A DNA stretch of 64,000 nucleotides from Dehalococcoidia bacterium (GCA_022450525.1 JAKUQA010000001.1:87038-151037), one strand, 5' to 3'. Shown: positions 5,809 to 61,265, counted from the first letter of the stretch. The notes: generated from the sequence alone by a model not told the origin. Numbers and translations are program-made.

Positions 5809-7038
5809 GTGGAAACAGAAATAAATATAACTTTTCAGGGAGGAACTGGTGGAAACGGATGTATTAGTTTCCGAAGAGAAAAATACGTTCCTAAAGGTGG
5901 ACCTGACGGGGGAGATGGTGGGTTTGGTGGAAGTGTTATTCTCAAAGGAACTACCGCTGAATACGACTTACGAAAAATTAAAGGTAGAAATATTATAAAA
6001 GCAGCCAGGGGAGAAGAGGGAAAAAGTAGGAAGAAAACAGGAAAAGCAGGGGAAAATAATATTATAAATGTTCCGTTGGGAACTAGGGTTAGTGACACAG
6101 TAACTGGGAAAATTATAGGAGAAATAATGGAAGAAGGGGAACAGTTATTGGTGGCTCAGGGGGGAGTTTATGGAAAAGGAAACACTCGCTTTTCTACTTC
6201 TCGAAATAAAATACCTCTTTTAGCAGAAACAGGAGGTCCTGGGGAAGAAAAAAAAGTAGTAATGGAACTTTTCCCCTTGGTAGATATTTGTGTAATGGGT
6301 GATCTTTCGGGATATGCTAAAAGTATATTTGAAAGTATAACCAATATTAACCGTGGTCAACAGAATGAAGAGGTTAATATCGCACCACATAGCCCCTTTC
6401 AGGTAAGAGAAGTAGAACTGAATTGGACTAAGTACCAAATTGGATTAATCTCTTTTTCAAATAACAATGTTGATCAGTTGCAAGAAAGCTTAAATTTAAT
6501 TAAAAGGGCCAAGGTTATAATCCTAGTTTTAGAACTTGATGAAGTTGATATAAATATTGAAAATATTGCTCAATTTTTAGCTTCAAATACTATATATACC
6601 CGTAGTCCAGAAATTACATTTATTAAGGAAGAGCTTGATTTATCAGGGGAAGAATATATTGAGCAAAAACAAGCTGAATATGTAAGCTTAATCCAGTATG
6701 AAAAAGAATCAGAAAACATAATAAGGCATATAAAAGAGAAAGCCATAAATATTTTAAATAAAGAATTTTTATACAAAAAACAATTGGAACAAAACAATGT
6801 TATTCATGCAACTGAAGAAAAAAACATAACTAAGGTTGAAAAAAACAGCGAAGGATATGTTGTTTTTAATTCTAGAGCTGAAAGACTCGTTGTGTTACCG
6901 GACCAAAGAAGTTTTGCTGCAAGAATACAATTAAGAAAAGAGCTAAATACTATGGGGGTAATAGATGCTCTTGAAAAGGCAGGGGTAAAACAAGGAGACA
7001 ATGTAAAAATAGGCAAGAAAGAGTTCATATGGGAATAA
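5809..7038 (+). CDS. obg: Obg-family protein with an intact Obg fold and OCT domain but a degenerate GTPase domain
   Basis: The N-terminus GGTGGNGCISFRREKYVPKGGPDGGDGGFGGSV is the glycine-rich Obg fold. The C-terminus ...MGVIDALEKAGVKQGDNVKIGKKEFIWE is the OCT domain. In the central region, GDLSGYAKS replaces GxxxxGKS, and no DxxG or NKxD motif is present. The gene overlaps nadD, which is conserved synteny. Confidence 0.8.
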   Translation: METEINITFQGGTGGNGCISFRREKYVPKGGPDGGDGGFGGSVILKGTTAEYDLRKIKGRNIIKAARGEEGKSRKKTGKAGENNIINVPLGTRVSDTVTGKIIGEIMEEGEQLLVAQGGVYGKGNTRFSTSRNKIPLLAETGGPGEEKKVVMELFPLVDICVMGDLSGYAKSIFESITNINRGQQNEEVNIAPHSPFQVREVELNWTKYQIGLISFSNNNVDQLQESLNLIKRAKVIILVLELDEVDINIENIAQFLASNTIYTRSPEITFIKEELDLSGEEYIEQKQAEYVSLIQYEKESENIIRHIKEKAINILNKEFLYKKQLEQNNVIHATEEKNITKVEKNSEGYVVFNSRAERLVVLPDQRSFAARIQLRKELNTMGVIDALEKAGVKQGDNVKIGKKEFIWE

Positions 7039-7616
7039 ATAAGATAGGCATACTTGGAGGAACTTTTGACCCTATTCATACAGCACACATAAAGTTAGCA
7101 GAAATAGCGATGGTTGAGTGCAATTTGGATAAAGTTTTATTTATACCAGCAGGTAATCCTTGGATGAAAAAAGACACGTTGATTACAAGTCCAATCCATA
7201 GATTAAATATGGTTAATTTGGCTATAGGAAATAATTCTTCATTTTGTATTTCTGATATAGAAATAAAGAGACTAGGAAACACATACACAATAGACACACT
7301 AAAGGAACTAGGTGTAGATAAATCCCAAAAAGAATATCATTTAATTTTAGGCAGTGATTCTTATAAAGAAATAAGTAGATGGAAAAATCCAGAAGAAATT
7401 ATCGAAATTGTGAGGATAATATTATTTACTCGCAAGGGTGACACTCTACCAGAAACTATAAATCATACTGTTACCATAATTGATGAAGAAATAGAGGAAA
7501 TAAGCAGCACTTTAATAAGAAAAAAGGTTCAAACCAATGATTCGTTACAAGGACTTGTGCCTAAAAACGTAGAAGAGTATATTTTTAAAAATAATTTATA
7601 TAAAAAACAAGTGTAA
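7029..7616 (+). CDS. nadD: Nicotinate-nucleotide adenylyltransferase
   Basis: 195 aa with the GILGGTFDPIHTAH (T/H)xGH-type nucleotidyltransferase motif and a C-terminal ISST.IR motif. Confidence 0.88.
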   Translation: MGINKIGILGGTFDPIHTAHIKLAEIAMVECNLDKVLFIPAGNPWMKKDTLITSPIHRLNMVNLAIGNNSSFCISDIEIKRLGNTYTIDTLKELGVDKSQKEYHLILGSDSYKEISRWKNPEEIIEIVRIILFTRKGDTLPETINHTVTIIDEEIEEISSTLIRKKVQTNDSLQGLVPKNVEEYIFKNNLYKKQV

Positions 7617-8242
7617 TGAATAAAACAATTCCAGAAAAAATTTTATCAAACCAGGCTGTTGTCGTAGATCCAACAATGCCTTATATATTAGCTTCAGGTG
7701 TAAATAGTCCAATTTACTGTGATATGAGGAAGCTCTTATCGGATGTAGAAACACGTGGAGAGATTATAAATAAGATAGCTGATCTAATCGAAAGAGAAAG
7801 GTTTAATAACTACGTGGTAGTGGGAGTTGCTACTGCTGGTATTCCTTGGGCATCTTTATTAGCACAAAGGCTTAATAAACCCTTAGCATATGTTAGACCA
7901 GAGCCAAAAGATCATGGTCTAGGAAAACAAATCGAAGGCAGTATAGATAAGGGACAAAAAGTTATTGTTATAGAGGATTTAACTAGCACTGGTGGTTCTG
8001 CGATTAGATCTGTAGAGGCGATTCATTCAGAAAACATAGAAGTTCTTTCTTGTTATAGTATATGCTCTTACAAATCAAAATTAGCCAAAGAAAGATTTCA
8101 AGAACTACAAATAAAACACTCATTTTTGTTTGGGATTGACGAAATCTTACAAACCGCACTCAAAAATAACTATCTTTCCTCGACAGAAATTAAACTAGTT
8201 GAAGATTGGTTAAGAACAGGCCCTTTTAACTCAGACATTTAA
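7616..8242 (+). CDS. pyrE: Orotate phosphoribosyltransferase
   Basis: 208 aa with the PRPP-binding loop VIVIEDLTSTGGS. The start overlaps the nadD stop (TAATG). Confidence 0.8.
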   Translation: MNKTIPEKILSNQAVVVDPTMPYILASGVNSPIYCDMRKLLSDVETRGEIINKIADLIERERFNNYVVVGVATAGIPWASLLAQRLNKPLAYVRPEPKDHGLGKQIEGSIDKGQKVIVIEDLTSTGGSAIRSVEAIHSENIEVLSCYSICSYKSKLAKERFQELQIKHSFLFGIDEILQTALKNNYLSSTEIKLVEDWLRTGPFNSDI

Positions 8243-8254
8243 TATATAAATCAA
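8205..8254 (+). repeat. Left copy of a perfect 50-bp direct repeat (pyrE 3' end plus 12 nt)
   Basis: ATTGGTTAAGAACAGGCCCTTTTAACTCAGACATTTAATATATAAATCAA is identical at 10084..10133. Confidence 0.97.
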
Positions 8255-8269
8255 TAAGGAAACCAATCA

Positions 8270-9916
8270 GTGACGCAATCAACCCAAAGGCCTAATATTG
8301 TTTTTATATTTGCGGATGACTGGGGAAGGTATGCAAATGCTTACGCCAAGTTCGAAGGCCCTGATTCTATAAATGCACTTATCGAAACACCTAATTTCAA
8401 TAGAGTTGTAGATGAAGGCGCTATATTTACCAACGCTCATGTCCCTGTGCCAAGCTGCACCCCATGTAGGAGCTCTATTCTGTCCGGCACATACTTCTGG
8501 GAGACAGGATTGGGGGCTATACTGGAGGGTGGTCGTTGGGATGAATCTATACCTACCTACCCGCTAATCCTTGAAGAAAAAGGCTATCACATTGGCTATA
8601 CGTACAAGGTCTGGTCTCCTGGAATTGCGGAAGACGCACCACATGGGGGCTACCGGGCTAAATACGAACCATCAGGTAACAAATGGCGGGAATTTTCAAT
8701 TGAAGCTACCAAGCTTGTTCCCGAGATGGGTGTGGAAGCGGCCAAGGAAGTCCTGTATGACGAAACCCGTAGTAACTTTGCTTCATTTCTGGAAGATGTC
8801 CCTGAAGGTGATCCGTTCTGCTACTGGTGGGGACCCGTTAATACCCACAGAGTATGGGAAAAAGGATCTGGGAAAGACTTGTGGGGTCTGGATCCGGATA
8901 AATTAAAAGGGAAAATGCCGGATTTTCTGCCAGACGTACACGAAATACGGGAAGATTTTAACGATTATCTTGGCGAAGCTCAGGCTGTTGACGCAGGAAT
9001 CGGAATAATACTCGAAGAATTGGATAACATCGGAGAATTGGACAACACATTGATTGTAATTAGTGGCGACCACGGGATTCCGGGGTTTCCTCGTTCAAAG
9101 GCAAATCTCTACGATATTGGAACCCAAGTTACCCTTGCTGCCAGATGGCCCCAAAATATACAGCCAGGAAAAGTGATACACGAATTCGTTAATCTAATGA
9201 ACCTTGCCCCAACTTTTCTCGAAGCTGCTGGTGAAACTCCTCCTGATCAAATGGTGGAAAGTCTTCTTCCTTTAATGACAGCATCGACCTCAGGTGAATC
9301 AAGTTTTGGCTCCGGTTACGTTATTACAGGTAGGGAACGGCACGTTGCGTTGTCTCAACAGGATGGCAAACCCTATCCTTCTAGAGCCATCAGGACTCAA
9401 GACTACTTGTATATACGTAATTTCGCTCCTGATAGATGGCCGAGTGGGCATCCGGGAGAATTGATTGATCCGAACATAGTGGACCCAGAGAAAATGGCCG
9501 AATTAGGAGCTTTTCGTGGCATGCGCAGTTCAGTTTATCACGACTTAGATGGTGGCCCGACAAAAGAATGGCTCCTAACGAATCGAAGTAAGCCCGACGT
9601 GAAACCGAAATTTGACCTTTGCTTTGGAAAGAGGCCTGCAGAAGAGCTATATGATTTGAAATCTGACCCAGACTATTTAATCAATGTGGCAGGAGATCCA
9701 GAGTACTCTGAAACTGTGAAAGAGCTTTCATCTAAACTCCTCAAAACGTTACAAGATCGCAATGATCCGAGACTCGAAGGGGAAAATTGTAAATTTGAAC
9801 ATCCCCCTTTTGCAGGACCAGTGGAAGCAAAATGGTATGAAGAACGTTATAGTCAAATTGAGGATAGAAAACGCAGAGCACGTGCTAATTCATCTAAGCA
9901 TCTCAAATCACAATAA
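8270..9916 (+). CDS. Sulfatase (formylglycine-dependent arylsulfatase family), no evident signal peptide
   Basis: 548 aa. N-terminal NIVFIFADDWG, the CxPxR maturation motif SCTPCRSSILSG, and GDHG in the metal site. GTG start. Confidence 0.85.
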   Translation: MTQSTQRPNIVFIFADDWGRYANAYAKFEGPDSINALIETPNFNRVVDEGAIFTNAHVPVPSCTPCRSSILSGTYFWETGLGAILEGGRWDESIPTYPLILEEKGYHIGYTYKVWSPGIAEDAPHGGYRAKYEPSGNKWREFSIEATKLVPEMGVEAAKEVLYDETRSNFASFLEDVPEGDPFCYWWGPVNTHRVWEKGSGKDLWGLDPDKLKGKMPDFLPDVHEIREDFNDYLGEAQAVDAGIGIILEELDNIGELDNTLIVISGDHGIPGFPRSKANLYDIGTQVTLAARWPQNIQPGKVIHEFVNLMNLAPTFLEAAGETPPDQMVESLLPLMTASTSGESSFGSGYVITGRERHVALSQQDGKPYPSRAIRTQDYLYIRNFAPDRWPSGHPGELIDPNIVDPEKMAELGAFRGMRSSVYHDLDGGPTKEWLLTNRSKPDVKPKFDLCFGKRPAEELYDLKSDPDYLINVAGDPEYSETVKELSSKLLKTLQDRNDPRLEGENCKFEHPPFAGPVEAKWYEERYSQIEDRKRRARANSSKHLKSQ

Positions 9917-10083
9917 TGTCTAAGATATAGAATTGCGGCATATCATGCATTGAGGGCTCTCAGTAATGTAGTATGCACTTGGATGTATAAATTGATTTTT
10001 CTGAGCAAACCTAACAAGTACTGCTATAAAGCTATTAGAGAATCCTAATATTCAGAATAAGGAGAATGAATTGTCCAAACAAA

Positions 10084-10133
10084 ATTGGTTAAGAACAGGC
10101 CCTTTTAACTCAGACATTTAATATATAAATCAA
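10084..10133 (+). repeat. Right copy of the perfect 50-bp direct repeat
   Basis: Identical to 8205..8254. It carries a non-functional copy of the last 12 pyrE codons, and its last 4 nt overlap the stop codon of the minus-strand gene 10130..11077. Confidence 0.97.
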
Positions 10134-11077
10134 AGAGGGAGATTTACTGAAGCCAGAGAAGTGGTTTGGCCTAACTGATTTGTTCCCCTTACTTCAAGGT
10201 CTAACCTTTTTTCTTTTTCGGTGTTATTAATTGTAATTACTTTTCCAGAATAAGTAATTATATCACCAGGGCGTACGGGTTCGAGGGCTCGTTCATTAAA
10301 AGTGCTGTTAATAATGGCTTTTTGGCCAAAAGTTTTTTCTACTAGATGGAGCATAAATCCAACAGCTGTAGGGCCAGATAATGTTGTTCCGCTAAAAACA
10401 GTAGCTTCCGCAAAAGCCTCGTCCACATGTAGCAGGGCGGTTGGACTAGGTTCTTTGTTAGACCAGTTGTTTAGTTCGTGGTACTTGTTGATAGTTTCTT
10501 GTGAGATGATTCGTTGTAATTGAGGAATTACATCTCCTTCAGTTATATTATTAATATCAAAACTATTTGCTTCAGTGCTAATATTTGTACTCGCAGTTTG
10601 ATTAGCCCCAGTAGTTCTTGCTTTTTGTCCTTTAGAAAATTCCCACATTACATTATATCTATAATTAATAACAGGTTCGTTTGTTTGGTTTTTTGCCTCT
10701 ACTCCTATAGATAAAAACCTATTACCCGAAGAGCTTTCCCATTTCTTTTCAAAGAAAGCAGTACTTGTAATAATATCGTTTTCTTTAATCGCATTTCCTA
10801 ACCATTCTATATCTGTTCCAACAAAAGGTGTGGATCGACTATTGGTCTCTGCCTCTTCTGGTGAAATAAACCCGTTTTCATGCATTACATCTAATCGCCG
10901 TGCTGGTGCATAAATAAAAAACATACCAGCAGGAGCCTGTAAAAGCTCCCCTGAATTACCAGCAGTATTATCCTCAATAGATTTTTTGTAATTAATTATC
11001 ATCTCTTTTGTGATATTTATTGAGGTTGGTTTTGCAGATGTACCTACTAAAATCTGGTCCCATTCTAAAACATTCAT
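10130..11077 (-). CDS. MaoC-like double hot-dog fold (enoyl-CoA) hydratase/dehydratase
   Basis: 315 aa with two hot-dog-like halves. The C-terminal half has a MaoC-like V(R)PGD(I)I...G.V pattern. The family call rests on pattern only. Confidence 0.5.
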   Translation of the reverse strand: MNVLEWDQILVGTSAKPTSINITKEMIINYKKSIEDNTAGNSGELLQAPAGMFFIYAPARRLDVMHENGFISPEEAETNSRSTPFVGTDIEWLGNAIKENDIITSTAFFEKKWESSSGNRFLSIGVEAKNQTNEPVINYRYNVMWEFSKGQKARTTGANQTASTNISTEANSFDINNITEGDVIPQLQRIISQETINKYHELNNWSNKEPSPTALLHVDEAFAEATVFSGTTLSGPTAVGFMLHLVEKTFGQKAIINSTFNERALEPVRPGDIITYSGKVITINNTEKEKRLDLEVRGTNQLGQTTSLASVNLPL

Positions 11078-24665: not shown

Positions 24666-26108
24666 ATGGCAAATGAACCAAAAAATATAGGCGATGTACT
24701 AAAACTAATGCAAGATACGGGGAGTGATATCCTTGATATTAAATTTATAGATTTACCAGGTACATGGCAACACGTTTCTGTTCCCACAAGTGAAGTTACA
24801 GAGTCTTTGTTTCAAGACGGAACAGGATTTGACGGATCATCGATACGAGGTTTTCAATCAATTGATGAATCGGATATGTTGCTGGTTCCGGATATATCTA
24901 CCGTTAAGAAAGATCCTTTTAACGATGGTCAATTAACAGTTATTGCAGATATAAGAGACCCATTGACTGGTGAAAGTTATTCTAGGGATCCTAGAAATGT
25001 TGCAAAAAAAGCTGAAGCATATTTAAAGACCACGGGAATTGGCGACAATTCATTTTGGGGTCCGGAAGTAGAATTTTTTATATTTGATTCAGTGAGATTT
25101 AGCTATGGGGCAAATCACGGGTATCATTTTGTTGATTCAGATGAAGGTATATGGAATTCTGGTGATTTGACAATGCTAGACGGTACAACCCTTAATAAAG
25201 GAATGAGGCCTAGACATAAAGAAGGATATTTCCCAGTACCCCCTGTTGATACTTTACAAGATATTCGTTCAGAAATGGTTAGGACTTTAATAAATGGATT
25301 TAATATTGCTGTTGAAAAACATCATCATGAAGTTGCTACAGGAGGACAAGGCGAAATAGATATAGTTTTTGATAGTCTTGTACAAACAGCAGATAATGTA
25401 ATGAACTATAAATATGTTGTGAAAAATGTAGCCGCTAAATATGATAAAGTCGTTACATTTATGCCAAAACCACTCTTTAACGATAACGGGACAGGAATGC
25501 ATACACACCAATCTATTTGGAAAGATGGAGTTCCGTTATTTGCTGGTGATGAATATGCCGGTCTATCAAAGCTTGCTTTAAACTATATTGGTGGGCTTAT
25601 CAAACATGGAAAAGCATTAATGGCTTTGGCAGCACCAACTACAAACTCATATAAACGACTAACTCCTGGATTTGAAGCACCGACAATTTTGGCACTTTCG
25701 GCAAGGAATAGATCTGCTGCATGTAGGATTCCTATGTATTTTCAAAATCCTAAGGCTAAGAGAGTAGAATTCCGTTCGGCAGACCCAACATGTAATCCAT
25801 ATTTAACATTCGCCGCAATGTTAATGGCAGGATTAGATGGCATAGAAAATGGCTATGAGCCAGGAGACCCACTAGAATCAGACCTTTTTTCATTAAGTGC
25901 TGAAGATATGGCAAAATTACCTCAAGTTCCAAGTAGTTTGGAAGAAGCACTGCAGGCATTAGAGGACGACCATGAATTTTTATTAAAAGGTGGTGTCTTT
26001 ACTGAGGACTTAATTAGAGGATGGATTGATTTTAAACGTGAAAATGACGTGGATCCTGTTAGGCTTCGCCCTCATCCATATGAATTCTATTTAAGTTTTG
26101 ATGCTTAA
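24666..26108 (+). CDS. glnA: Glutamine synthetase type I (480 aa form)
   Basis: Has the GS beta-grasp and catalytic domain motifs (FDGSSIRGF, NGTGMHTHQS, RVEFRSADPTCNPYL). The adenylylation-site Tyr is replaced (DLFSLSAED versus NLYDLPPEE). Confidence 0.92.
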   Translation: MANEPKNIGDVLKLMQDTGSDILDIKFIDLPGTWQHVSVPTSEVTESLFQDGTGFDGSSIRGFQSIDESDMLLVPDISTVKKDPFNDGQLTVIADIRDPLTGESYSRDPRNVAKKAEAYLKTTGIGDNSFWGPEVEFFIFDSVRFSYGANHGYHFVDSDEGIWNSGDLTMLDGTTLNKGMRPRHKEGYFPVPPVDTLQDIRSEMVRTLINGFNIAVEKHHHEVATGGQGEIDIVFDSLVQTADNVMNYKYVVKNVAAKYDKVVTFMPKPLFNDNGTGMHTHQSIWKDGVPLFAGDEYAGLSKLALNYIGGLIKHGKALMALAAPTTNSYKRLTPGFEAPTILALSARNRSAACRIPMYFQNPKAKRVEFRSADPTCNPYLTFAAMLMAGLDGIENGYEPGDPLESDLFSLSAEDMAKLPQVPSSLEEALQALEDDHEFLLKGGVFTEDLIRGWIDFKRENDVDPVRLRPHPYEFYLSFDA

Positions 26109-26162
26109 TTATTGATATGTATGCCCAGTAAATTTTAGCTATTTAAGTACGAGTAGATTTCG

Positions 26163-26191
26163 TTGACAAGTACAAATCTATTACTTACACT
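26163..26191 (+). promoter_or_regulatory. Sigma70-like promoter TTGACA-17 nt-TACACT ahead of the second GS / gltBD genes
   Basis: Read directly from the sequence: TTGACA at 26163-26168 and TACACT at 26186-26191. Confidence 0.5.
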
Positions 26192-26224
26192 AAACTTAAG
26201 CGTTATTGTAGCAATAAGAACTCA

Positions 26225-26253
26225 AATAGGGGAGACTTTAGTTCTCCCCTATT
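26225..26253 (+). other. Perfect 11-bp stem / 7-nt loop hairpin (AATAGGGGAGA ctttagt TCTCCCCTATT), 21 nt before the second GS start
   Basis: Read directly from the sequence. No U-tract follows on the plus strand, so it is not a textbook intrinsic terminator. Confidence 0.6.
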
Positions 26254-26274
26254 CTTGTCAGAAATGGAATTTCT

Positions 26275-27621
26275 ATGGACCAAGAAAAAAGTAGAGATGA
26301 AGCTATTAAATTTGTCACAGAGACCGTACATGGCAGTGATGTTCGATTTGTGCGACTTTGGTTTACTGATATTTTAGGTAATTTAAAGGGTGTGTCATTA
26401 AATGTGGCTGAGCTCGAAAATTCTCTAAGAGATGGTATGACTTTTGACGGAGCATCTATAGGAGCAATAGCTAGAAACGAGGAAAGCGACCTAGTTTTAA
26501 TGCCGGACCCCACTACATTTAAGGTTTTACCATGGCGTCCTTCAGACGGGGCTGTTGGTAAAATGTTCTGCGATGTGTATCGACCAGACGGTTCTCCTCA
26601 TTTAGGTGATCCTAGGGCTATACTAAAATCAAACTTAGAAAGGGCCTACCAGCTTGGGTACACCTTTTTATTGTCTCCAGAAACAGAATATTATTATTTC
26701 AAAGACTCTAATTCAACTGAGATATTAGATTCTGCTGGATATTTTGATCAAACCTCTGATATAGGAACAGAACTTCGAAGAGAAACAGTATTAGCTTTAG
26801 AAGAAATAGGAATACCTGTTGAATATAGCCATCACGAAGTGTCTCCCAGTCAACATGAAATAAACTTACGCCATACAGATGCGTTAACTATGGCAGATAA
26901 TGTTATGACCTATAAACTTGCTGTCAAGGAAATTGCACAGAAACACGGAATTCACGCCAGTTTTATGCCCAAACCAATAGAAGGTTTACATGGTAATGGA
27001 ATGCATATGGATATGTCTTTGTTTAAAGGAGATATAAATCAATTTTATAAAGACGGTGGAACAGGTGACGATTTTATTTCAGATACTGCGAAGTATTTTA
27101 TTGCTGGGCTTATGAAGCATGCCAAAGAAATTACGGCTATAACCAATCAATGGGTCAACTCTTACAAACGACTTGTTTCTGGATTTGAAGCACCAGGATA
27201 CATTTCGTGGTCAAAACTTAACAGGGGAGATCTTATTAGGGTTCCATCATACAGAAAAGGAAGAGAAAATTCTGTTAGAATTGAATATCGATCACCTGAT
27301 TCTGCATGTAATCCCTATCTAGCATTTAGTGCTATTCTTGCAGCAGGTTTGGCAGGTATAGAAAACAAGTACGAGATTCCTGTTCCCGTTGAACAAGATA
27401 TAAACAAAATGGACCAGATACAAAGAACTGCCCAGAGTATAGAGTCTTTACCCACTAATCTTTCGGAAGCATTGCACTTTTTTGAGAATAGTGAATTAAT
27501 GTACAATTGTCTTGGAGAAGATGCGTTTTATAACTTTATAAAAAATAAAAAATTAGAATGGGCCGAATATAGCCGTCACGTTAGTGGTTATGAAATAGAT
27601 AAATACCTATCTATGCTTTAG
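26275..27621 (+). CDS. Glutamine synthetase, second paralogue (448 aa, short GSI-alpha-like form)
   Basis: VRFVRLWFTDILG, FDGASI, GNGMHMDMSL and RIEYRSPDSACNPYL motifs. Confidence 0.88.
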   Translation: MDQEKSRDEAIKFVTETVHGSDVRFVRLWFTDILGNLKGVSLNVAELENSLRDGMTFDGASIGAIARNEESDLVLMPDPTTFKVLPWRPSDGAVGKMFCDVYRPDGSPHLGDPRAILKSNLERAYQLGYTFLLSPETEYYYFKDSNSTEILDSAGYFDQTSDIGTELRRETVLALEEIGIPVEYSHHEVSPSQHEINLRHTDALTMADNVMTYKLAVKEIAQKHGIHASFMPKPIEGLHGNGMHMDMSLFKGDINQFYKDGGTGDDFISDTAKYFIAGLMKHAKEITAITNQWVNSYKRLVSGFEAPGYISWSKLNRGDLIRVPSYRKGRENSVRIEYRSPDSACNPYLAFSAILAAGLAGIENKYEIPVPVEQDINKMDQIQRTAQSIESLPTNLSEALHFFENSELMYNCLGEDAFYNFIKNKKLEWAEYSRHVSGYEIDKYLSML

Positions 27622-51369: not shown

Positions 51370-51590
51370 ACCTTAATAATTGAATAGTTTTTCTTAATAT
51401 AAGAGTAGTTCCTAACTAAAGGTTTATCTCCAGTTAGTTAGAGAACTATAAATGACATTGATGATTCCCTACAATGCGGATTCATTAATGTTGAAGTTGA
51501 CAAAAAGAATGAAGAATTTTAATTCTTCATTTCTCGAAAACAAAACTAATTTTTATTAGTTTCTGTCTTTTTTTCTGTCAGGGATTTTTT

Positions 51591-54593
<3,003 letters not shown>

Positions 54594-54679
54594 AAGAAAT
54601 TTCATACAGAAAAGGATACAGAAACTAGGTAAATTAAGAAAAGTAACGCGTGTGAGAGGATTATACTGATTATTAACGG

Positions 54680-54754
54680 CGCGGGGTGGAGCAGTGGCAG
54701 CTCGTCGGGCTCATAACCCGAAGGTCGGCGGTTCGAATCCGTCCCCCGCTACCA
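54680..54754 (+). tRNA. Initiator tRNA-fMet (anticodon CAU), CCA encoded
   Basis: CGCGGGGTGGAGCAGTGGCAGCTCGTCGGGCTCATAACCCGAAGGTCGGCGGTTCGAATCCGTCCCCCGCTACCA. Initiator hallmarks are present: an unpaired 1:72 position (C1/U72), A11:U24, and three consecutive G:C pairs in the anticodon stem. Confidence 0.9.
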
Positions 54755-57742: not shown

Positions 57743-58900
57743 ATGGATTTCGAATTTTCTACAGAATATGAAGATTTTAGAAAAGAATTACGCGCATTTG
57801 CAGAAAATGATATGCCCGAGGGATTTGATCCTGATGAAGCAGATAAAGACGAGATTCAAGGTATTCGACAAAAAATTGCTAAAAAGGGTTGGTTAACTTT
57901 ACCTTGGCCTGAAGAATATGGAGGAATGGGTGCTCCTCATCTAAAGCAAATGGTTTTTAATGAAGAAACAGCATATAGAAGAATTCCTGCAAATGATAAT
58001 GCTATTTCAATGCTTGGACCTATATTGATGTTAGAAGGCACAGACGAGCAAAAGCAAAAGTTTTTACCACCAATAGCCAAAGCAGAAGTACGTTGGGCAC
58101 AAGGCTATAGTGAACCTCAATCTGGTTCAGACTTAGCTTCTTTACAGACTAGAGCTGTTGAAGATGGTGACGATTTTGTTATTAACGGTACAAAAATATG
58201 GACTTCTGGCGCGCATGAAGCCGATTGGTTATTTATGTTAGCTAGAACTGACCCAGATGCTCCTAAACATAGAGGTATTAGTTTTTTACTTGTTGATATG
58301 AAAGCACCAGGTGTTGAAGTTCGACCTATCATTGATATGGCCGGAAGACATAATTTCAATCAACTATTTTTTGACAACGTGAGAGTACCAAAACAAAACT
58401 TAGTAGGCGAATACAATAGGGGTTGGTATGTTGGAGCAAGATTATTAGACTTTGAAAGATCTGGAGTTAATAGGTCTGCATCGGCTAGAAGAACCTTAGA
58501 AGAAATTACAGATTTTGCAAAAAATAACACATTAAATGGCAAAGCTATGTCATCAATTTCCCGAGTTAAAAATAATCTGGCTAATATGGCAATAGAAGTA
58601 GAAGTAAGCAGAATGATTTCCTATAGAATTGGTTATTTACAAAGCAAAGGTGAAGTATTTAACAAAGAAGCATCTATGGGGAAAATGTTTGGTACTGAAA
58701 TGGTACAGAGAATTTATTCTGCAGGAATGGATATGTTGGGTCTATATGGCACCTTGCAACAGGGTAGTAAATATGCTCCACTCAATGGGAGAATACAAAA
58801 AGGATATTTAGCATCCTATAGTGCAACTATTGCTGCAGGAACATCAGAAATACAGAGAAATGTTGTAGCCACAAGAGGATTAGGATTACCTCGAGCTTAA
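57743..58900 (+). CDS. Acyl-CoA dehydrogenase (catalytic Glu present)
   Basis: 385 aa. GYSEPQSGSDLASL and a C-terminal GTSEIQRNVVA motif. Confidence 0.85.
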   Translation: MDFEFSTEYEDFRKELRAFAENDMPEGFDPDEADKDEIQGIRQKIAKKGWLTLPWPEEYGGMGAPHLKQMVFNEETAYRRIPANDNAISMLGPILMLEGTDEQKQKFLPPIAKAEVRWAQGYSEPQSGSDLASLQTRAVEDGDDFVINGTKIWTSGAHEADWLFMLARTDPDAPKHRGISFLLVDMKAPGVEVRPIIDMAGRHNFNQLFFDNVRVPKQNLVGEYNRGWYVGARLLDFERSGVNRSASARRTLEEITDFAKNNTLNGKAMSSISRVKNNLANMAIEVEVSRMISYRIGYLQSKGEVFNKEASMGKMFGTEMVQRIYSAGMDMLGLYGTLQQGSKYAPLNGRIQKGYLASYSATIAAGTSEIQRNVVATRGLGLPRA

Positions 58901-58926
58901 ACAGTAATTTATATCTGGAGTAAATA

Positions 58927-60105
58927 ATGGATTTTAAATTTAGTACAGAAGAAGAAACTTTTCAAAACGATGTTAATGGTTTCTTGAAACAAGAACTTCC
59001 GAGTGATTGGACAGGTGAAACTGCTTATGCATCGAGTGATGATGGCTGGAACTTTAACCTTAAGATGAAAAAAAAGTTAGCGGAAAAAGGTTGGTTAACT
59101 TTAGGATGGCCTAAAGAATATGGAGGCATGGAAGCTTCTATTATGAGCCAAGTTCTTTTTAACGAACAAATGGCATATAACCGCGCTCCAGGGATAGATA
59201 TCTGGGGAATTAAAATGTTAGCTCCAACACTGATGGTTCATGGTACTGAGGAACAAAAGCAAAGATTTTTACCACCTGTTGCTAATGGAGAAGTTCAATG
59301 GTGTCAGGGTTATAGTGAGCCAGGATCAGGATCTGATTTGGCTTCACTACAAACACGGGCTGAGGTAGATGGTGACGAATATGTTGTCAACGGTACAAAA
59401 ATATGGACATCTAATGGGCATAGAGCAGATTGGATAATATTGTTAGCTCGAACAGATACTGATGCACCAAAACACCGTGGAATAACAATGTTGCTTGTAG
59501 ATATGAAGACACCAGGTATAAGTGTAAATCCAATAGTAAATATGGCTGGTATGCATGAGTTTAATCAAGTTTTCTTTGATAACGTCCGTGTACCAAAAAG
59601 AAATTTAGTTGGAGAAGAAAATAGAGGTTGGTATGTCGGTGCAACATTATTAGATTTCGAGAGATCTGGGGTTCAGTATTCTGCTGAAGCAAGAAGGACG
59701 ATTGATGATCTAGTGGGTTTTATCAAAGATAATCCTTCCTCTAATTTTGATTTATCAGGTAGAGAGCATTTAAGAAACCGTTTAGCTGATATGGCGATTG
59801 AAACTGAAGTAAGTCGAATGATTTCATATAATATTGGATTTATGCAAAGTCAGGGATTTGTACCAAATAAAGAAGCATCAATTTGTAAGTCTTTTAGTAC
59901 AGAAATGGAACAAAGAGTTGCTGAAACAGGAATGCACATACTTGGTTTGTATGGGCAGCTTACCAGTGATTCAAAATGGGCTCCTTTACGGGGTAGAATT
60001 GAAAGAACTTTTTTGCGTCATCACTCAGCTACTTTGGCTTCGGGCACATCAGAAATACAGAGAAATATAATTGCGACACGTGGCTTAGGTCTTCCACGTG
60101 CTTAA
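58927..60105 (+). CDS. Acyl-CoA dehydrogenase, close tandem paralogue of the previous gene
   Basis: 392 aa and collinear with the previous protein (GYSEPGSGSDLASL; GTSEIQRNIIATRGLGLPRA). Confidence 0.85.
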   Translation: MDFKFSTEEETFQNDVNGFLKQELPSDWTGETAYASSDDGWNFNLKMKKKLAEKGWLTLGWPKEYGGMEASIMSQVLFNEQMAYNRAPGIDIWGIKMLAPTLMVHGTEEQKQRFLPPVANGEVQWCQGYSEPGSGSDLASLQTRAEVDGDEYVVNGTKIWTSNGHRADWIILLARTDTDAPKHRGITMLLVDMKTPGISVNPIVNMAGMHEFNQVFFDNVRVPKRNLVGEENRGWYVGATLLDFERSGVQYSAEARRTIDDLVGFIKDNPSSNFDLSGREHLRNRLADMAIETEVSRMISYNIGFMQSQGFVPNKEASICKSFSTEMEQRVAETGMHILGLYGQLTSDSKWAPLRGRIERTFLRHHSATLASGTSEIQRNIIATRGLGLPRA

Positions 60106-60131
60106 GGTATTCATAATTTAAGGAGAAAATC

Positions 60132-61265
60132 ATGGATTTGGGATTTGATGAAGTTCAGATGTTACTTAAAAATAGTGCTCGTGAGGTATTGGAGCAAGAG
60201 TGCCCTATTACTTTAGTACGTGCAATGGAAGAAGATGAAAGAGGATTTACTTCTGAATTATGGCAAAACATGGCTGAATTGGGATGGTTAGGTTTATCCA
60301 TACCTGAACAATATGGCGGACAGGGTATGTCCTTTTTTGATTTAGCCATATTGCTTGAAGAGACTGGTCGATTTTTGGTACCTGGTCCATTTTTTTCAAC
60401 AGTAGTTTTAAGTTCATCAATTCTAACTGAATATGGAACGGAGTCTCAAAAATCTGAAATACTACCTAAAATAGCTAATGGAGATTTGATCGCAACGGTA
60501 GCGATAACCGAACCTTCTGCAACATATGAATCAAATGGTATACAACTAACCGCAACTAAAGATGGATCAAATTATGTGTTAAATGGGACTAAACTTTTTG
60601 TAAATGATGCCCAAATAGCTGACATAATTTTAGTGGTTGCCAAAACTGATGATAAAGGCGACGAATCTAATGGTTTTACAGTTTTTATTGTCGATAAAAA
60701 TACTTCGGGAATGACAATTACTCCATTAGATACTATAGCATCAGATAAACAGGCAGAAATAGTTTTTGAGTCTGTATCAATTTCAGAAGAAAATGTTTTA
60801 GGTGAAGTTGGAAAGGGTTGGGATATAGCAAAACGTGTTATTGATTTAGGTTCATCAGCCAAGTGTATAGAAATGCTAGGCGGTGCTGACCGGGTTTTGG
60901 AAATGACTGTAGAATATGTAAAAGATAGGACACAATTTGGACGTCCTATTGGTAGTTTTCAAGCTATTCAGCATCATTGCGCCAATATGGCAACTGATGT
61001 TGAGGGATGTAGATATGTAGCGTATCATGCCGTTTGGAGGATATCTGAAGGTCTGGAAGCTCAAAAAGAAATTTCAATAGCAAAGGCTTGGGTTAGTGAT
61101 GCATATAGAAGAGTATGTGCAATAGGTCACCAGTCTCACGGTGCTATAGGATTTACTAAAGAATATGATTTGCAGTTATATACGAGAAGAGCAAAGGCTC
61201 AGGAACTTGCTTTTGGTGATTCATCATATCATCGAGAAATTGTAGCACAACAGTTAGGAATATAA
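60132..61265 (+). CDS. Acyl-CoA dehydrogenase-family protein lacking the C-terminal catalytic Glu
   Basis: 377 aa with the ACAD fold (ITEPSATYES..., FQAIQHH). The segment aligned to GTSEIQRN reads GDSSYHRE, so Ser takes the place of the catalytic Glu. Confidence 0.75.
   Translation: MDLGFDEVQMLLKNSAREVLEQECPITLVRAMEEDERGFTSELWQNMAELGWLGLSIPEQYGGQGMSFFDLAILLEETGRFLVPGPFFSTVVLSSSILTEYGTESQKSEILPKIANGDLIATVAITEPSATYESNGIQLTATKDGSNYVLNGTKLFVNDAQIADIILVVAKTDDKGDESNGFTVFIVDKNTSGMTITPLDTIASDKQAEIVFESVSISEENVLGEVGKGWDIAKRVIDLGSSAKCIEMLGGADRVLEMTVEYVKDRTQFGRPIGSFQAIQHHCANMATDVEGCRYVAYHAVWRISEGLEAQKEISIAKAWVSDAYRRVCAIGHQSHGAIGFTKEYDLQLYTRRAKAQELAFGDSSYHREIVAQQLGI

What the first reader, a model, noticed from the sequence alone, without database searches (positions are those of the whole stretch)
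8205..10133. Higher-GC sulfatase gene bracketed by perfect 50-bp direct repeats that duplicate the pyrE 3' end: an integrase-less insertion
The 50-mer ATTGGTTAAGAACAGGCCCTTTTAACTCAGACATTTAATATATAAATCAA occurs twice without a mismatch, at 8205-8254 and 10084-10133.
- Copy 1 supplies the real last 12 codons and stop of pyrE.
- Copy 2 is a dead copy of that tail, and its last bases overlap the stop codon of the convergent MaoC-like gene.
- Between the copies lie only one gene and 167 nt of spacer. The gene is a cytoplasmic-looking sulfatase with a CxPxR motif.
- 60-nt lines I counted by hand are about 47% G+C inside (8641, 9121), against about 32% in pyrE and about 40% in the MaoC-like gene. G/C-ending codons are visibly more frequent inside.

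Removing one repeat plus the 1,829-bp insert restores a tight convergent pyrE / MaoC-like junction. The window contains no integrase, transposase or inverted repeats.

This geometry is what a Campbell-type integration would leave if a small circle carried 50 bp of identity to the chromosome. It is also a ready substrate for precise excision. Copy 2 is preceded by AAGGAG-n6-TTG, which creates a 16-codon mini-ORF (MSKQNWLRTGPFNSDI) ending in the pyrE tail.
Basis: partly seen in the sequence, partly recalled or inferred. Interest (0 to 1): 0.75.

Follow-up and report, generated by a model that had tools for sequence, protein, structure and literature searches.

The report
Sulfatase gene pasted in by microhomology
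A single foreign sulfatase gene sits between two perfect 50-base copies of the end of pyrE in an ocean SAR202 bacterium; the source locus and the untouched target site, both recovered from seawater metagenomes, show that the copies are a by-product of sloppy end-joining at two 6-base matches rather than the footprint of a mobile element.

Summary
The 50-mer occurs exactly twice (8205-8254, 10084-10133). It brackets a 548-aa S1 sulfatase whose GC3 (0.38 vs 0.22) and codon adaptation lie 5.8 sd from 50 other window genes.

It is not an assembly artefact. At least 13 independent assemblies carry both copies, and the 50-mer has twice the flank depth.

The host is a low-GC marine SAR202/Dehalococcoidia species. 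Conspecific contigs (97.8% identical) and two sister species have pyrE abutting the MaoC-like gene. The empty junction equals the window minus one repeat and the 1,829-bp insert, base for base.

The decisive result is the donor-type locus, seen in three contigs of about 45% GC: two sulfatases, an aldolase, a sialidase, this sulfatase, then a CehA/McbA hydrolase. It matches the window over exactly 8249-10089 (99.1-99.6%, ungapped). That stretch runs from AATCAA, the last 6 nt of copy 1, to ATTGGT, the first 6 nt of copy 2.

The repeat is therefore a target duplication bounded by two microhomology joints. It is not an att site, and the incoming DNA did not carry 50 bp of homology. The "mini-ORF" is the donor's next gene, cut after codon 6.

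The same gene lies at four or more other loci at over 99% identity, again with junctions close to its ends. This is illegitimate recombination, a known kind of event, caught unusually completely.

The parts
7616..8242 (+). pyrE (orotate phosphoribosyltransferase, 208 aa). It is intact, and its last 12 codons and stop lie in repeat copy 1.
   Evidence: ORF. Pfam Pribosyltran and NCBIfam pyrE TIGR00336 at 120 bits, above the cut-off of 106.8.
8205..8254 (.). Repeat copy 1 (50 bp): the functional pyrE tail, the 8-nt intergenic stretch and a spare copy of the MaoC stop-codon triplet.
   Evidence: Exact match. Identical to the single copy in empty sites.
8249..8254 (.). AATCAA: the left-junction microhomology. 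It is present in the recipient empty site and in the donor 16-21 nt upstream of the sulfatase start.
   Evidence: Three-way alignment of donor, empty site and product. Donor identity to the window begins at 8249.
8249..10089 (+). Segment identical to the donor-type gene cluster: 1,841 bp, 99.1-99.6% identity, no gaps.
   Evidence: BLAST of L068, L074 and L065 against the window.
8255..8269 (+). Donor-derived 15-nt leader carrying the sulfatase ribosome-binding site (AAGGAA/AAGGAG). No donor promoter came with it.
   Evidence: Sequence. The same leader is present in all other contexts.
8270..9916 (+). S1-family (formylglycine-type) sulfatase, 548 aa, CTPCR motif, no signal peptide. It is the only complete gene of the insert.
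   Evidence: Pfam PF00884 at 2e-29 and SGSH_C at 2.6e-14. Closest solved structures are carbohydrate sulfatases such as 5g2v GlcNAc-6-sulfatase at 9e-27. GC3 and CAI are outliers. Present in metatranscriptome contigs.
9917..10070 (+). Donor intergenic spacer between the sulfatase and the donor's next gene, including that gene's ribosome-binding site AAGGAG at 10059-10064.
   Evidence: Collinear with L065, L068 and L074. No Rfam family matches it.
10071..10121 (+). The "mini-ORF". Codons 1-6 (TTG TCC AAA CAA AAT TGG, MSKQNW) are the start of the donor's 301-aa CehA/McbA-family metallohydrolase. They are fused in frame to the dead pyrE tail (LRTGPFNSDI*).
   Evidence: The donor continues MSKQNWYKGNLHTHTTESDGD.... 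NCBIfam NF038032 at 1e-30, 107 bits, above the cut-off of 80.
10084..10089 (.). ATTGGT: the right-junction microhomology. It is present in pyrE codons 196-198 of the recipient and in codons 5-7 of the donor's CehA/McbA gene.
   Evidence: Three-way alignment. Donor identity to the window ends at 10089.
10084..10133 (.). Repeat copy 2 (50 bp): a non-coding duplicate of the pyrE tail. It supplies the real stop codon of the MaoC-like gene. Some contigs carry G>T at 10088.
   Evidence: X11: 27 of 103 depth carries T.
10130..11077 (-). MaoC-like dehydratase-fold gene (315 aa), convergent with pyrE and intact.
   Evidence: ORF. Pfam MaoC_dehydratas at 6e-7. The exact protein is found next to both empty and occupied sites.

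Best explanation
**What happened**
- A 1.83-kb piece of a gene cluster from a higher-GC (about 45%) Chloroflexota relative was joined into the 8-bp gap between the convergent pyrE and MaoC-like genes of a low-GC SAR202 species.
- That cluster reads sulfatase, sulfatase, HpcH/HpaI aldolase, sialidase, this sulfatase, CehA/McbA hydrolase.
- The joining was illegitimate, microhomology-mediated recombination.

**The two joints**
- The left end of the donor piece joined at AATCAA, just after the pyrE stop.
- The right end joined at ATTGGT, 44 bp further upstream, inside pyrE.
- Because the joints are staggered in this crossed order, the 50 bp from ATTGGT to AATCAA ended up on both sides of the insert.
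- The duplication is what lets both essential-looking flanking genes keep complete reading frames. This may be why this product survived.

**Expression**
- The sulfatase arrived without a promoter, 27 nt behind pyrE and in the same orientation. It is probably read through from the obg-nadD-pyrE transcript.

**Shown**
- The donor-type locus, the empty site and the product.
- The exact positions of both joints and their 6-bp microhomologies.
- The truncated donor gene.
- The direction of transfer.

**Inferred**
- The enzymology, which could be template switching at a replication fork, integration of taken-up single-stranded DNA, or end-joining.
- Whether both joints formed in one event. The alternative is that the right joint is older and the left joint came later, by deletion, by homology-facilitated illegitimate recombination, or by re-circularisation at AATCAA followed by a crossover in the 50-mer.
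For: **Donor locus and joints**
- Three independent contigs (L065, L068, L074; flanks 42-48% GC) match the window over exactly 8249-10089 at 99.1-99.6% without gaps. They continue with unrelated sequence on both sides.
- The three-way alignment shows recipient sequence, then a shared hexamer, then donor sequence at both joints.
- Under random joining, P(microhomology >= 6) is 1.6e-3 per joint.

**Empty sites**
- The empty site in conspecifics equals the window with one repeat plus the insert removed.
- Six empty-site loci from five distinct contigs were seen.
- Sister species at 83-86% nt identity are also empty. There the two hexamers are diverged.

**Direction of transfer**
- The insert's GC, GC3 and CAI match the donor flanks, not the recipient.
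- In the donor the spacer leads into an intact 301-aa CehA/McbA gene. Only its first 6 codons survive in the window.

**No element features**
- No recombinase in the window.
- No terminal inverted repeats.
- The 50-mer does not fold better than shuffles, z = 0.24.
- No copy of the 45-mer in 2.9 M viral contigs.

**The same process elsewhere**
- Downstream of a giant fn3 gene, the junction uses a 9-10-bp microhomology, AAGAGGTAT.
- A fifth left junction lies at -14, in 88-106-kb contigs.

**Laboratory precedent**
- Illegitimate joints in HFIR carry 3-10 bp of microhomology (introduction of PMC3240628).
- Single strands annealing at microhomologies can be built in during replication (abstract of 10.1101/2023.11.22.568220).
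Against: **Order of events**
- The same right joint (spacer-ATTGGT-pyrE tail-MaoC) is also found attached to three other left contexts. Those carry 14-29 more donor bases upstream than the window does.
- One of these (A-left) is the only entry, and R1 the only exit, of the sulfatase contig in run X10. A B-left branch enters in run X14 with no donor-type exit.
- The right joint may therefore predate the window's left joint, and the one-step version may be wrong.

**Other weaknesses**
- Textbook HFIR and double illegitimate recombination products usually carry a deletion of recipient DNA rather than a duplication.
- All evidence comes from metagenome contigs.
- Competence, Ku/LigD and similar functions of the recipient were not examined.
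Confidence: 0.75

Rival explanations
1. Campbell-type homologous integration. A small circle carrying the sulfatase and one copy of the 50-mer recombined with the chromosomal 50-mer through RecA. The repeats are the duplicated homology.
For: - The geometry is exactly what a single crossover gives.
- recA, ruvC and ruvA are in the window.
- In E. coli, duplications of the homologous segment arose by single crossover of re-circularised molecules (PMC3240628).
- A fragment from a genome that already had the right joint could re-circularise at the two AATCAA hexamers. That would give just such a 1,879-bp circle.
- Occupied sites sit on at least 3 flanking haplotypes, some shared with empty sites. 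This needs spread or loss by recombination.
Against: - It cannot be the origin. The donor locus has no 50-mer, and the repeat ends coincide with donor-recipient microhomologies. At least one illegitimate joint must come first.
- 50 bp is near the lower limit for RecA-dependent exchange. This is my own knowledge and was not tested here.
- Spread between strains is explained more simply by ordinary homologous exchange using the long identical flanks.
- No contig with the circle junction was met, although no search aimed at it could be run.
Confidence: 0.15
2. Remnant of a site-specific integrative element (an integrase-less, att-flanked island of the CIME type). On this reading the 50-mers are attL and attR of an element that targets the 3' end of pyrE, mobilised in trans or decayed.
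For: - Direct repeats that restore the 3' end of a housekeeping gene are typical of tyrosine-integrase islands (own knowledge).
- Such integrases do act in these genomes. In other contigs the same sulfatase lies in tRNA-Thr island arrays, bounded by 71-87-nt partial tRNA repeats next to a tyrosine-integrase fragment (PF00589, 1e-12).
Against: - The sequence that would be attP does not exist in the donor context.
- The repeat is the recipient's own species-specific tail. Sister species differ at 6-8 positions and are empty.
- No integrase lies in 64 kb.
- No other cargo was seen at pyrE among 23 contigs holding the identical pyrE protein.
- The 45-mer is absent from viral contigs. In the JGI metagenome set it occurs only as an empty site.
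Confidence: 0.04
3. The empty sites are secondary. On this reading the insertion is ancestral in the species, and the empty form arises by precise deletion between the 50-bp repeats.
For: - Perfect 50-bp direct repeats 1.9 kb apart are a good substrate for deletion.
- Empty and occupied sites share some flanking haplotypes.
Against: - Two sister species have the empty arrangement with diverged tails, so empty is the ancestral state of the locus.
- The insert is still 99.1-99.6% identical to the donor-type locus, while conspecific genomes differ by 2.2%. The insertion is therefore younger than the species' diversity.
- Some individual empty sites could still be revertants.
Confidence: 0.1
4. 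Assembly artefact: a collapsed or chimeric join creates a spurious duplication.
For: The window comes from uncultured, metagenome-type data. Contigs that join other left contexts to the same right side show that this region is hard to assemble.
Against: - Both copies are present in at least 13 assemblies from different samples and assemblers.
- The 50-mer has twice the depth of its flanks in three runs, including a 1.47-Mb single-genome-sized data set.
- The insert's depth equals the flank depth there.
Confidence: 0.01

Closest known systems
Homology-facilitated and double illegitimate recombination of foreign DNA (HFIR/DIR), described in Acinetobacter baylyi, Streptococcus pneumoniae and Pseudomonas stutzeri. 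Summarised in PMC3240628. Hulter and Wackernagel 2008 is cited in 10.1101/2025.01.24.634696.
   Same: - Foreign DNA with no mobile-element functions is fixed by joints at 3-10-bp microhomologies.
- The insert is of kilobase size.
- The donor sequence continues past the joints in the donor genome.
   Different: - Laboratory products usually delete about as much recipient DNA as they insert. Here 50 bp are duplicated and nothing is lost.
- This event is seen in a wild, uncultured population, and competence of the host is unknown.
- Whether one end used a homologous anchor cannot be told.
Short-patch double illegitimate recombination and replication-fork template switching (SPDIR; 10.1101/2023.11.22.568220, 10.1101/2024.07.02.601687).
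   Same: A strand pairs at two microhomologies and is built in during replication. A return to the template behind the point of departure naturally gives a flanking duplication.
   Different: SPDIR patches are tens of bases long, not 1.8 kb. The mechanism here is inferred from geometry only.
Integrase-less, att-flanked islands at the 3' end of housekeeping genes (CIMEs at fda in Streptococcus thermophilus; decayed islands at tRNA genes). This comparison rests on my own knowledge.
   Same: One cargo gene with no recombinase, between direct repeats that duplicate the 3' end of a housekeeping gene, with presence/absence polymorphism.
   Different: The repeats here are not a recombination site carried by the incoming DNA. 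The donor shares only 6 bp at each end, and no cognate integrase or sister element is known.
Stepwise growth of gene arrays by HFIR anchored on conserved flanks (Vibrio cholerae T6SS effector-immunity arrays, PMC5361080).
   Same: Repeated illegitimate events at one locus produce nested variants. An earlier-acquired sequence can serve as the homologous anchor for the next acquisition. This fits the sialidase-side extension seen in some contigs.
   Different: The genes are different. Here the same single gene also reappears at several unrelated loci.
SAR202 group I/II sulfatase paralogue expansions (PMC6946804, PMC10444878).
   Same: The host clade and enzyme family are the same. Cytoplasmic S1 sulfatases are a known trait of surface SAR202.
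   Different: Those papers attribute paralogue diversity mainly to ancient duplication. This copy is a very recent transfer, over 99% identical across genomes of 36% and 45% GC.

Membership tests
Site-specific integrative island (attL/attR repeats made by a tyrosine or serine recombinase) | The repeated sequence is carried by the incoming element (attP) as well as by the target (attB). | tested here: not met
   The donor-type locus shares only AATCAA and ATTGGT with the target. Identity ends at 8249 and 10089.
Site-specific integrative island (attL/attR repeats made by a tyrosine or serine recombinase) | A recombinase gene lies inside or next to the element, or a cognate element uses the same site. 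| tested here: not met
   - No integrase or transposase domain in 47 window ORFs.
- pyrE sites in 23 conspecific contigs and 2 sister species are either empty or hold this insert only.
- No viral contig carries the 45-mer.
- The rest of the genome was not seen.
Campbell-type integration by homologous recombination | A circular intermediate carrying one copy of the duplicated segment. | tested here: inconclusive
   - No such molecule was met in the contigs examined.
- Reads could not be searched for the circle junction.
- It is excluded as the first event because the donor lacks the 50-mer.
Illegitimate (microhomology-mediated) recombination of foreign DNA, HFIR/DIR type | Joints fall at short microhomologies (3-10 bp) between donor and recipient. 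| tested here: met
   - 6 bp at each joint, with a random expectation of P(>=6) = 1.6e-3 per joint.
- 9-10 bp at the independent junction behind the giant gene.
Illegitimate (microhomology-mediated) recombination of foreign DNA, HFIR/DIR type | Donor and recipient sequences both continue unrelated beyond the joints. The insert is an arbitrary piece of the donor, not a defined element. | tested here: met
   - The insert starts in the sialidase-sulfatase intergenic region and ends in codon 7 of the next gene.
- Other copies have different end points: -49, -34, -14 upstream and +10, +24 downstream.
Illegitimate (microhomology-mediated) recombination of foreign DNA, HFIR/DIR type | A DNA uptake route and the enzymes involved (competence genes, RecJ, ligase, Ku/LigD) are present in the recipient. 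| not tested
   Only 64 kb of the genome was available. RecA, RuvA and RuvC are present.
Transposon or insertion sequence with target-site duplication | Terminal inverted repeats, a transposase, and a short fixed-length duplication. | tested here: not met
   - No terminal inverted repeats. The only 19-nt imperfect pair has one arm in the MaoC gene.
- No transposase.
- 50 bp is far above usual target duplications (own knowledge).
Integron gene cassette | A folded attC site at the cassette's 3' end and an attI/intI platform. | tested here: not met
   - The spacer and repeat have no significant structure, z = 0.24.
- No Rfam hit.
- No integrase.
S1 (formylglycine-dependent) sulfatase family | The sulfatase fold, with the C/S-x-P-x-R maturation motif near the N terminus. 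| tested here: met
   - PF00884 at E 2e-29 over residues 8-321.
- Motif CTPCR in ...VPSCTPCRSSILSG....
- PDB relatives are carbohydrate sulfatases.
S1 (formylglycine-dependent) sulfatase family | A maturation enzyme (FGE or anSME) in the same genome. | not tested
   None was found among the window ORFs scanned. The rest of the genome was not available.

The most novel reading that the evidence does not exclude
The sulfatase gene may behave as a gene-sized mobile unit moved by a dedicated or at least strongly biased process.

- Five different left junctions fall within 50 nt upstream of its start codon, at -49, -34, -20, -14, plus the donor itself.
- Four right junctions fall within 173 nt after its stop.
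- These lie in at least five loci, at over 99% identity.
- That boundary pattern resembles a transcript more than a random DNA fragment.
- A copy-choice or reverse-transcription-like route, or a replication template-switch hot spot peculiar to these streamlined genomes, is not excluded by the data.
Probability: 0.07. Interest if true: 0.85.

Novelty: new member of a known kind. Interest (0 to 1): 0.5.

Why it matters
**The open question.** How abundant, streamlined ocean bacteria with almost no mobile elements gain genes is unresolved.

**What this locus offers.** All three states of one acquisition are recovered from wild populations:
- the donor locus,
- the untouched target,
- the product.

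The joints can therefore be read to the base. They show gene gain by plain illegitimate recombination, without phage, plasmid, integrase or transposon.

**A caution for annotation.** A perfect 50-bp direct repeat that duplicates the 3' end of a gene is normally taken as the signature of an integrase. Here it arises from two staggered microhomology joints.

**What follows from it.**
- The same sulfatase has since reached several other loci and genomic backgrounds. It is present in metatranscriptome assemblies. This suggests selection for a sulfated-glycan trait in surface SAR202.
- The inserted gene gives a natural marker for measuring recombination in an uncultured population.

Tried and rejected
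**Tested and rejected**
1. An att site or integrase island. I looked for the 45-mer core in viral contigs (0 hits) and JGI metagenome contigs (1 hit, an empty site). I also looked for recombinases in the window. Rejected.
2. RNA gene or structured site in the repeat or spacer. Rfam at E <= 1 found nothing. Folding gave z = 0.24.
3. Terminal inverted repeats. Only chance-level pairs were found.
4. Donor from another phylum. The best hits are unnamed marine proteins at 85% and 69%, then Chloroflexi, SAR202 and Caldilineaceae at 58-68%. Rejected.
5. The 85%-identical homologue P0002 as the donor. It sits next to a tRNA-Leu gene in a 41% GC genome, shares only the coding region at 79.5% nt, and has no shared flanks. 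It is not the donor.

**Left open**
6. Whether contigs that join other left contexts (aconitase-ABM, sialidase, giant fn3 gene) to the pyrE-tail side are assembly chimeras.
   - SNP patterns in the gene are compatible with switches.
   - Logan contigs argue that at least two of these forms are real molecules. In X10 the A-left context is the only entry and R1 the only exit. In X14 there is a B-left entry and no donor-type exit.
   - Depth bookkeeping in X10 (13.5 + 26.6 against 21.4) does not add up.
7. The far-left end of the sialidase-side extension.
   - All contigs stop within about 1.5 kb beyond the 485-aa sulfatase, at most at the end of the NHL-repeat gene that follows it.
   - A related MAG contig continues with 40-45% GC genes.

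**Could not be done**
No long-read run was listed.
9. The native ABM locus of the same species was not found. Only an 84% relative (L073) was recovered, so the microhomology at that junction is uncertain.


Full report
**1.

The 50-mer occurs exactly twice in the 64-kb window, at 8205-8254 and 10084-10133. No further match appears even with three mismatches, and none appeared in 100 shuffles. It is the only long near-perfect direct repeat in this part of the window.

- Copy 1 ends pyrE (7616-8242).
- Copy 2 holds the stop codon of the convergent MaoC-like gene (10130-11077).

Between the copies lie 1,829 bp:
- a 15-nt leader;
- one ORF of 548 aa (8270-9916);
- 167 nt of spacer.

The ORF is an S1 sulfatase with Pfam E 2e-29. 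It has the CTPCR motif and no signal peptide. Its nearest solved relatives are carbohydrate sulfatases.

Composition is clearly foreign:
- GC3 is 0.384 against 0.224 +/- 0.028 for 50 other window genes, whose maximum is 0.267.
- CAI is 0.541 against 0.703 +/- 0.028.
- Both lie 5.8 sd away.

No integrase or transposase domain was found in 47 ORFs. recA, ruvC and ruvA are present. There are no terminal inverted repeats, no Rfam family, and no unusual fold of the repeat.

**2. It is real, and it is a presence/absence polymorphism**

The identical sulfatase protein is indexed in 105 blocks of marine metagenome assemblies. At least 13 distinct contigs from different samples and assemblers carry pyrE, copy 1, the sulfatase, copy 2 and MaoC.

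In k=31 contig sets the 50-mer has twice the depth of its flanks:
- 293.8 vs 140.9/138.7 in X3, a 1.47-Mb data set;
- 293.8 vs 148 in X14;
- 62.7 vs 33.6 in X16.

Contigs that encode the identical pyrE and MaoC proteins also exist with the two genes abutting: L012/L022, L021, L028, L030 and L031. The junction of L012 equals the window with one repeat and the insert removed, over the 210 bases compared. L012 is 97.8% identical to the window over 19.2 kb.

The host is a low-GC (36%) marine Chloroflexota of the SAR202/Dehalococcoidia group. This follows from the names attached to cluster members and genome records. Two sister species (83-86% nt identity) have the empty arrangement with a diverged tail, so empty is the ancestral state.

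**3. Where the insert came from**

The same gene at over 99% nt identity turned up in other contexts. One of these is a gene cluster of about 45% GC:
- a 485-aa sulfatase;
- a 593-aa sulfatase;
- an HpcH/HpaI aldolase;
- a 90-aa ORF;
- a BNR sialidase;
- this sulfatase;
- a 301-aa protein;
- and, in L068, a P-type ATPase further on.

Three independent contigs show this arrangement (L065, L068, L074). A related Chloroflexota MAG contig continues the left side for 9 kb at 40-45% GC.

Identity of these contigs to the window runs over exactly 8249-10089. That is 1,841 bp at 99.13-99.62% with no gaps.

In them the window's "spacer" is simply the intergenic region. It leads into the 301-aa gene, a CehA/McbA-family metallohydrolase (NF038032, 1e-30, above cut-off). 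Its product begins MSKQNWYKGNLHTHT.

Three things fix the direction of transfer as donor cluster to pyrE locus:
- the composition of the insert;
- the truncated gene;
- the ancestral empty site.

**4. What the repeat is**

The three-way alignment reads as follows.

| Joint | Donor | Empty recipient | Product |
|---|---|---|---|
| Left | ...GGTATATGC[AATCAA]TAAGGAG... | ...AATATATA[AATCAA]AGAGGGAG... | ...AATATATA[AATCAA]TAAGGAA... |
| Right | ...CCAAACAAA[ATTGGT]ATAAAGG... | ...AGTTGAAG[ATTGGT]TAAGAAC... | ...CCAAACAAA[ATTGGT]TAAGAAC... |

ATTGGT is the first hexamer of the 50-mer, and AATCAA is the last. The repeat is thus exactly the recipient sequence between two microhomology joints that lie in crossed order. 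Under random joining, a microhomology of 6 or more has P = 1.6e-3 per joint.

Nothing resembling the pyrE tail exists in the donor. This rules out two readings as the origin:
- an att site carried by an element;

The duplication has a functional consequence. pyrE and MaoC are separated by only 8 bp, and the duplicated block contains the end of pyrE and the MaoC stop codon, so both genes stay whole. I infer that this is why a duplication product was the one to survive, rather than the usual insertion-with-deletion product.

**5. The same gene elsewhere: more joints close to its ends**

- *Behind a 1,800-aa fn3 protein.* The junction uses AAGAGGTAT. This is present both in the native locus (...TTATAAAAGAGGTAT|TCTATAC...) and upstream of the sulfatase in the donor.
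- *In 88-106-kb contigs.* The gene replaces the 655-aa and giant genes of that locus, with a left joint at -14. The right joint reads ...AAAATTGG|AGATTTACTGAAG|AGTGG|AACATTC... This retains 13 + 5 nt of the sequence that follows copy 2 in the window (10141-10153, 10160-10164). That copy therefore descends from the pyrE-locus right joint.
- *In an ABM gene.* Another left joint truncates an ABM gene at codon 42. A related species has the intact 95-aa gene.
- *In tRNA-Thr island arrays.* A piece of the ABM context travels with the sulfatase. There, cassettes are separated by partial tRNA repeats next to a tyrosine-integrase fragment.

Left joints thus lie at -49, -34, -20 and -14. Right joints lie at +10, +24 and +172/173.

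A plausible reason for this clustering is that the AT-rich intergenic stretches are where a 45%-GC donor offers microhomology to a 36%-GC genome. Selection for an intact gene placed behind a transcribed host gene would add to this. Both points are inference.

**6. What remains unresolved**

The window's right joint is also found attached to the ABM, sialidase and giant-gene left contexts (L009; L010, L047, L063; L005, L049). These could be assembly chimeras across the shared 1.8 kb.

Evidence that at least two of these forms are real molecules:
- In run X10 one unbranched contig runs from the ABM context through the gene into copy 2, and the window's left joint is absent.
- In X14 a sialidase-side branch (depth 9.8) enters the gene, and no donor-type exit exists.

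Evidence that leaves the matter open:
- Alleles in the sialidase-linked contigs switch from donor-type to window-type inside the gene, at different places.
- This fits homologous exchange with an incoming donor strand anchored on the already acquired gene. It also fits chimeras.
- Depths in X10 do not balance.

The order of events is therefore open. Either both joints formed at once, or the right joint came first and the window's left joint arose later. A later left joint could come from deletion between the two AATCAA hexamers, from homology-facilitated illegitimate recombination with the joint falling inside the anchor, or from re-circularisation at AATCAA followed by a crossover in the 50-mer. 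All four routes give the same sequence.

Flanking haplotypes show the insert on at least three backgrounds, some shared with empty sites. Ordinary homologous exchange, or loss through the repeats, has therefore shuffled it since. Metagenome consensus sequences make this a soft result.

**7. Expression and function**

The sulfatase is present in metatranscriptome contigs at depths like those of its neighbours. One RNA contig spans the ABM-side junction. Contig depth is a poor measure, and DNA carry-over is possible.

In the window the gene has only 15 nt of its own leader, behind pyrE. Read-through from the obg-nadD-pyrE unit is the likely source of transcription (inference).

The donor cluster suggests desulfation of a sulfated, sialylated glycan (inference). 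Sulfatase paralogues are a known feature of SAR202 groups I and II (PMC6946804, PMC10444878).

**8. Comparison with what is known**

The event works like laboratory HFIR and double illegitimate recombination: microhomology joints, kilobase inserts and no element functions (PMC3240628 and the abstracts of the SPDIR preprints). It differs in leaving a duplication instead of a deletion.

It looks like an integrase-less att-flanked island but fails that family's defining test. I file it as a new, unusually well documented member of a known kind of event.

I score interest at 0.5. The mechanism is not new. What is uncommon is recovering donor, target and product together in a wild streamlined bacterium. 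It is also useful to know that a perfect 50-bp gene-end duplication can arise without an integrase, and that one gene has been re-placed at several loci.

Noticed in passing
window 5809-7038: The Obg-like protein (409 aa) matches only the GTP1_OBG N-domain and the C-terminal DUF1967. No GTPase-domain hit was reported. Where the P-loop should be it reads VDICVMGDLSGYAKSIF. The same 409-aa product is called in all related contigs.
   Followed up: no
window 51546-54754: A 23S rRNA gene (51594-54592) stands alone. No 16S lies upstream and no 5S was found up to 55500. It is framed by a 56-nt inverted repeat (51546-51601 / 54583-54638) and followed by tRNA-Met. This looks like an unlinked rRNA gene.
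   Followed up: partly
window 57743-61265 and 24666-27621: Three tandem acyl-CoA dehydrogenase paralogues (about 71-75% nt identity at 1.2-kb spacing) and two adjacent glutamine synthetase paralogues.
   Followed up: no
L045 8000-13400; L046 9650-11740; L053 1-4200: tRNA-Thr(cgt)/tRNA-Gly(tcc) island arrays. Cassettes are separated by 71-87-nt partial tRNA-Thr repeats, and cassette order is permuted between contigs. A C-terminal tyrosine-integrase fragment (PF00589, 1e-12) lies at L053 about 2480-2840, and its last bases are repeated at L053 1-50. The sulfatase, with an 83-nt piece of an ABM gene, is one of the cassettes.
   Followed up: partly
L055-L062, L080, L083 (znuCBA-zur locus): The region after an 81-aa gene is hypervariable. 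Most contigs have a 655-aa gene and a roughly 1,800-aa fn3 protein followed by different genes. Others have the sulfatase in their place. Several long contigs end right after the giant gene.
   Followed up: partly
L080 10001-10447; L075 351-797 (minus strand): A 148-aa fusion ORF (MCKQNW | RFTEEW | NILVALKDH...). It is built from the donor CehA/McbA start, an 18-nt remnant of the antisense of the MaoC gene end, and a helicase-associated (HA) domain gene. The exact protein occurs in 13 contigs of up to 266 kb.
   Followed up: partly
window 10088 (copy 2): A G/T polymorphism inside the dead copy only (ATTGGT > ATTGTT). It is seen in L001, L004 and L009 and in about a quarter of the depth in run X11. 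Copy 1 was invariant in all contigs examined.
   Followed up: partly
window 8258-8276 and 10169-10187: A 19-nt imperfect inverted repeat (79%). One arm is in the insert's leader and the start of the sulfatase gene. The other is in the MaoC gene, which is also present in empty sites. These are not element termini and the match is probably chance.
   Followed up: yes
L042 10651-10736: The closest distinct homologue of the sulfatase (85% aa) lies about 170 nt from a tRNA-Leu(caa) gene in a 41% GC genome. This is another island-like position for this gene family.
   Followed up: no
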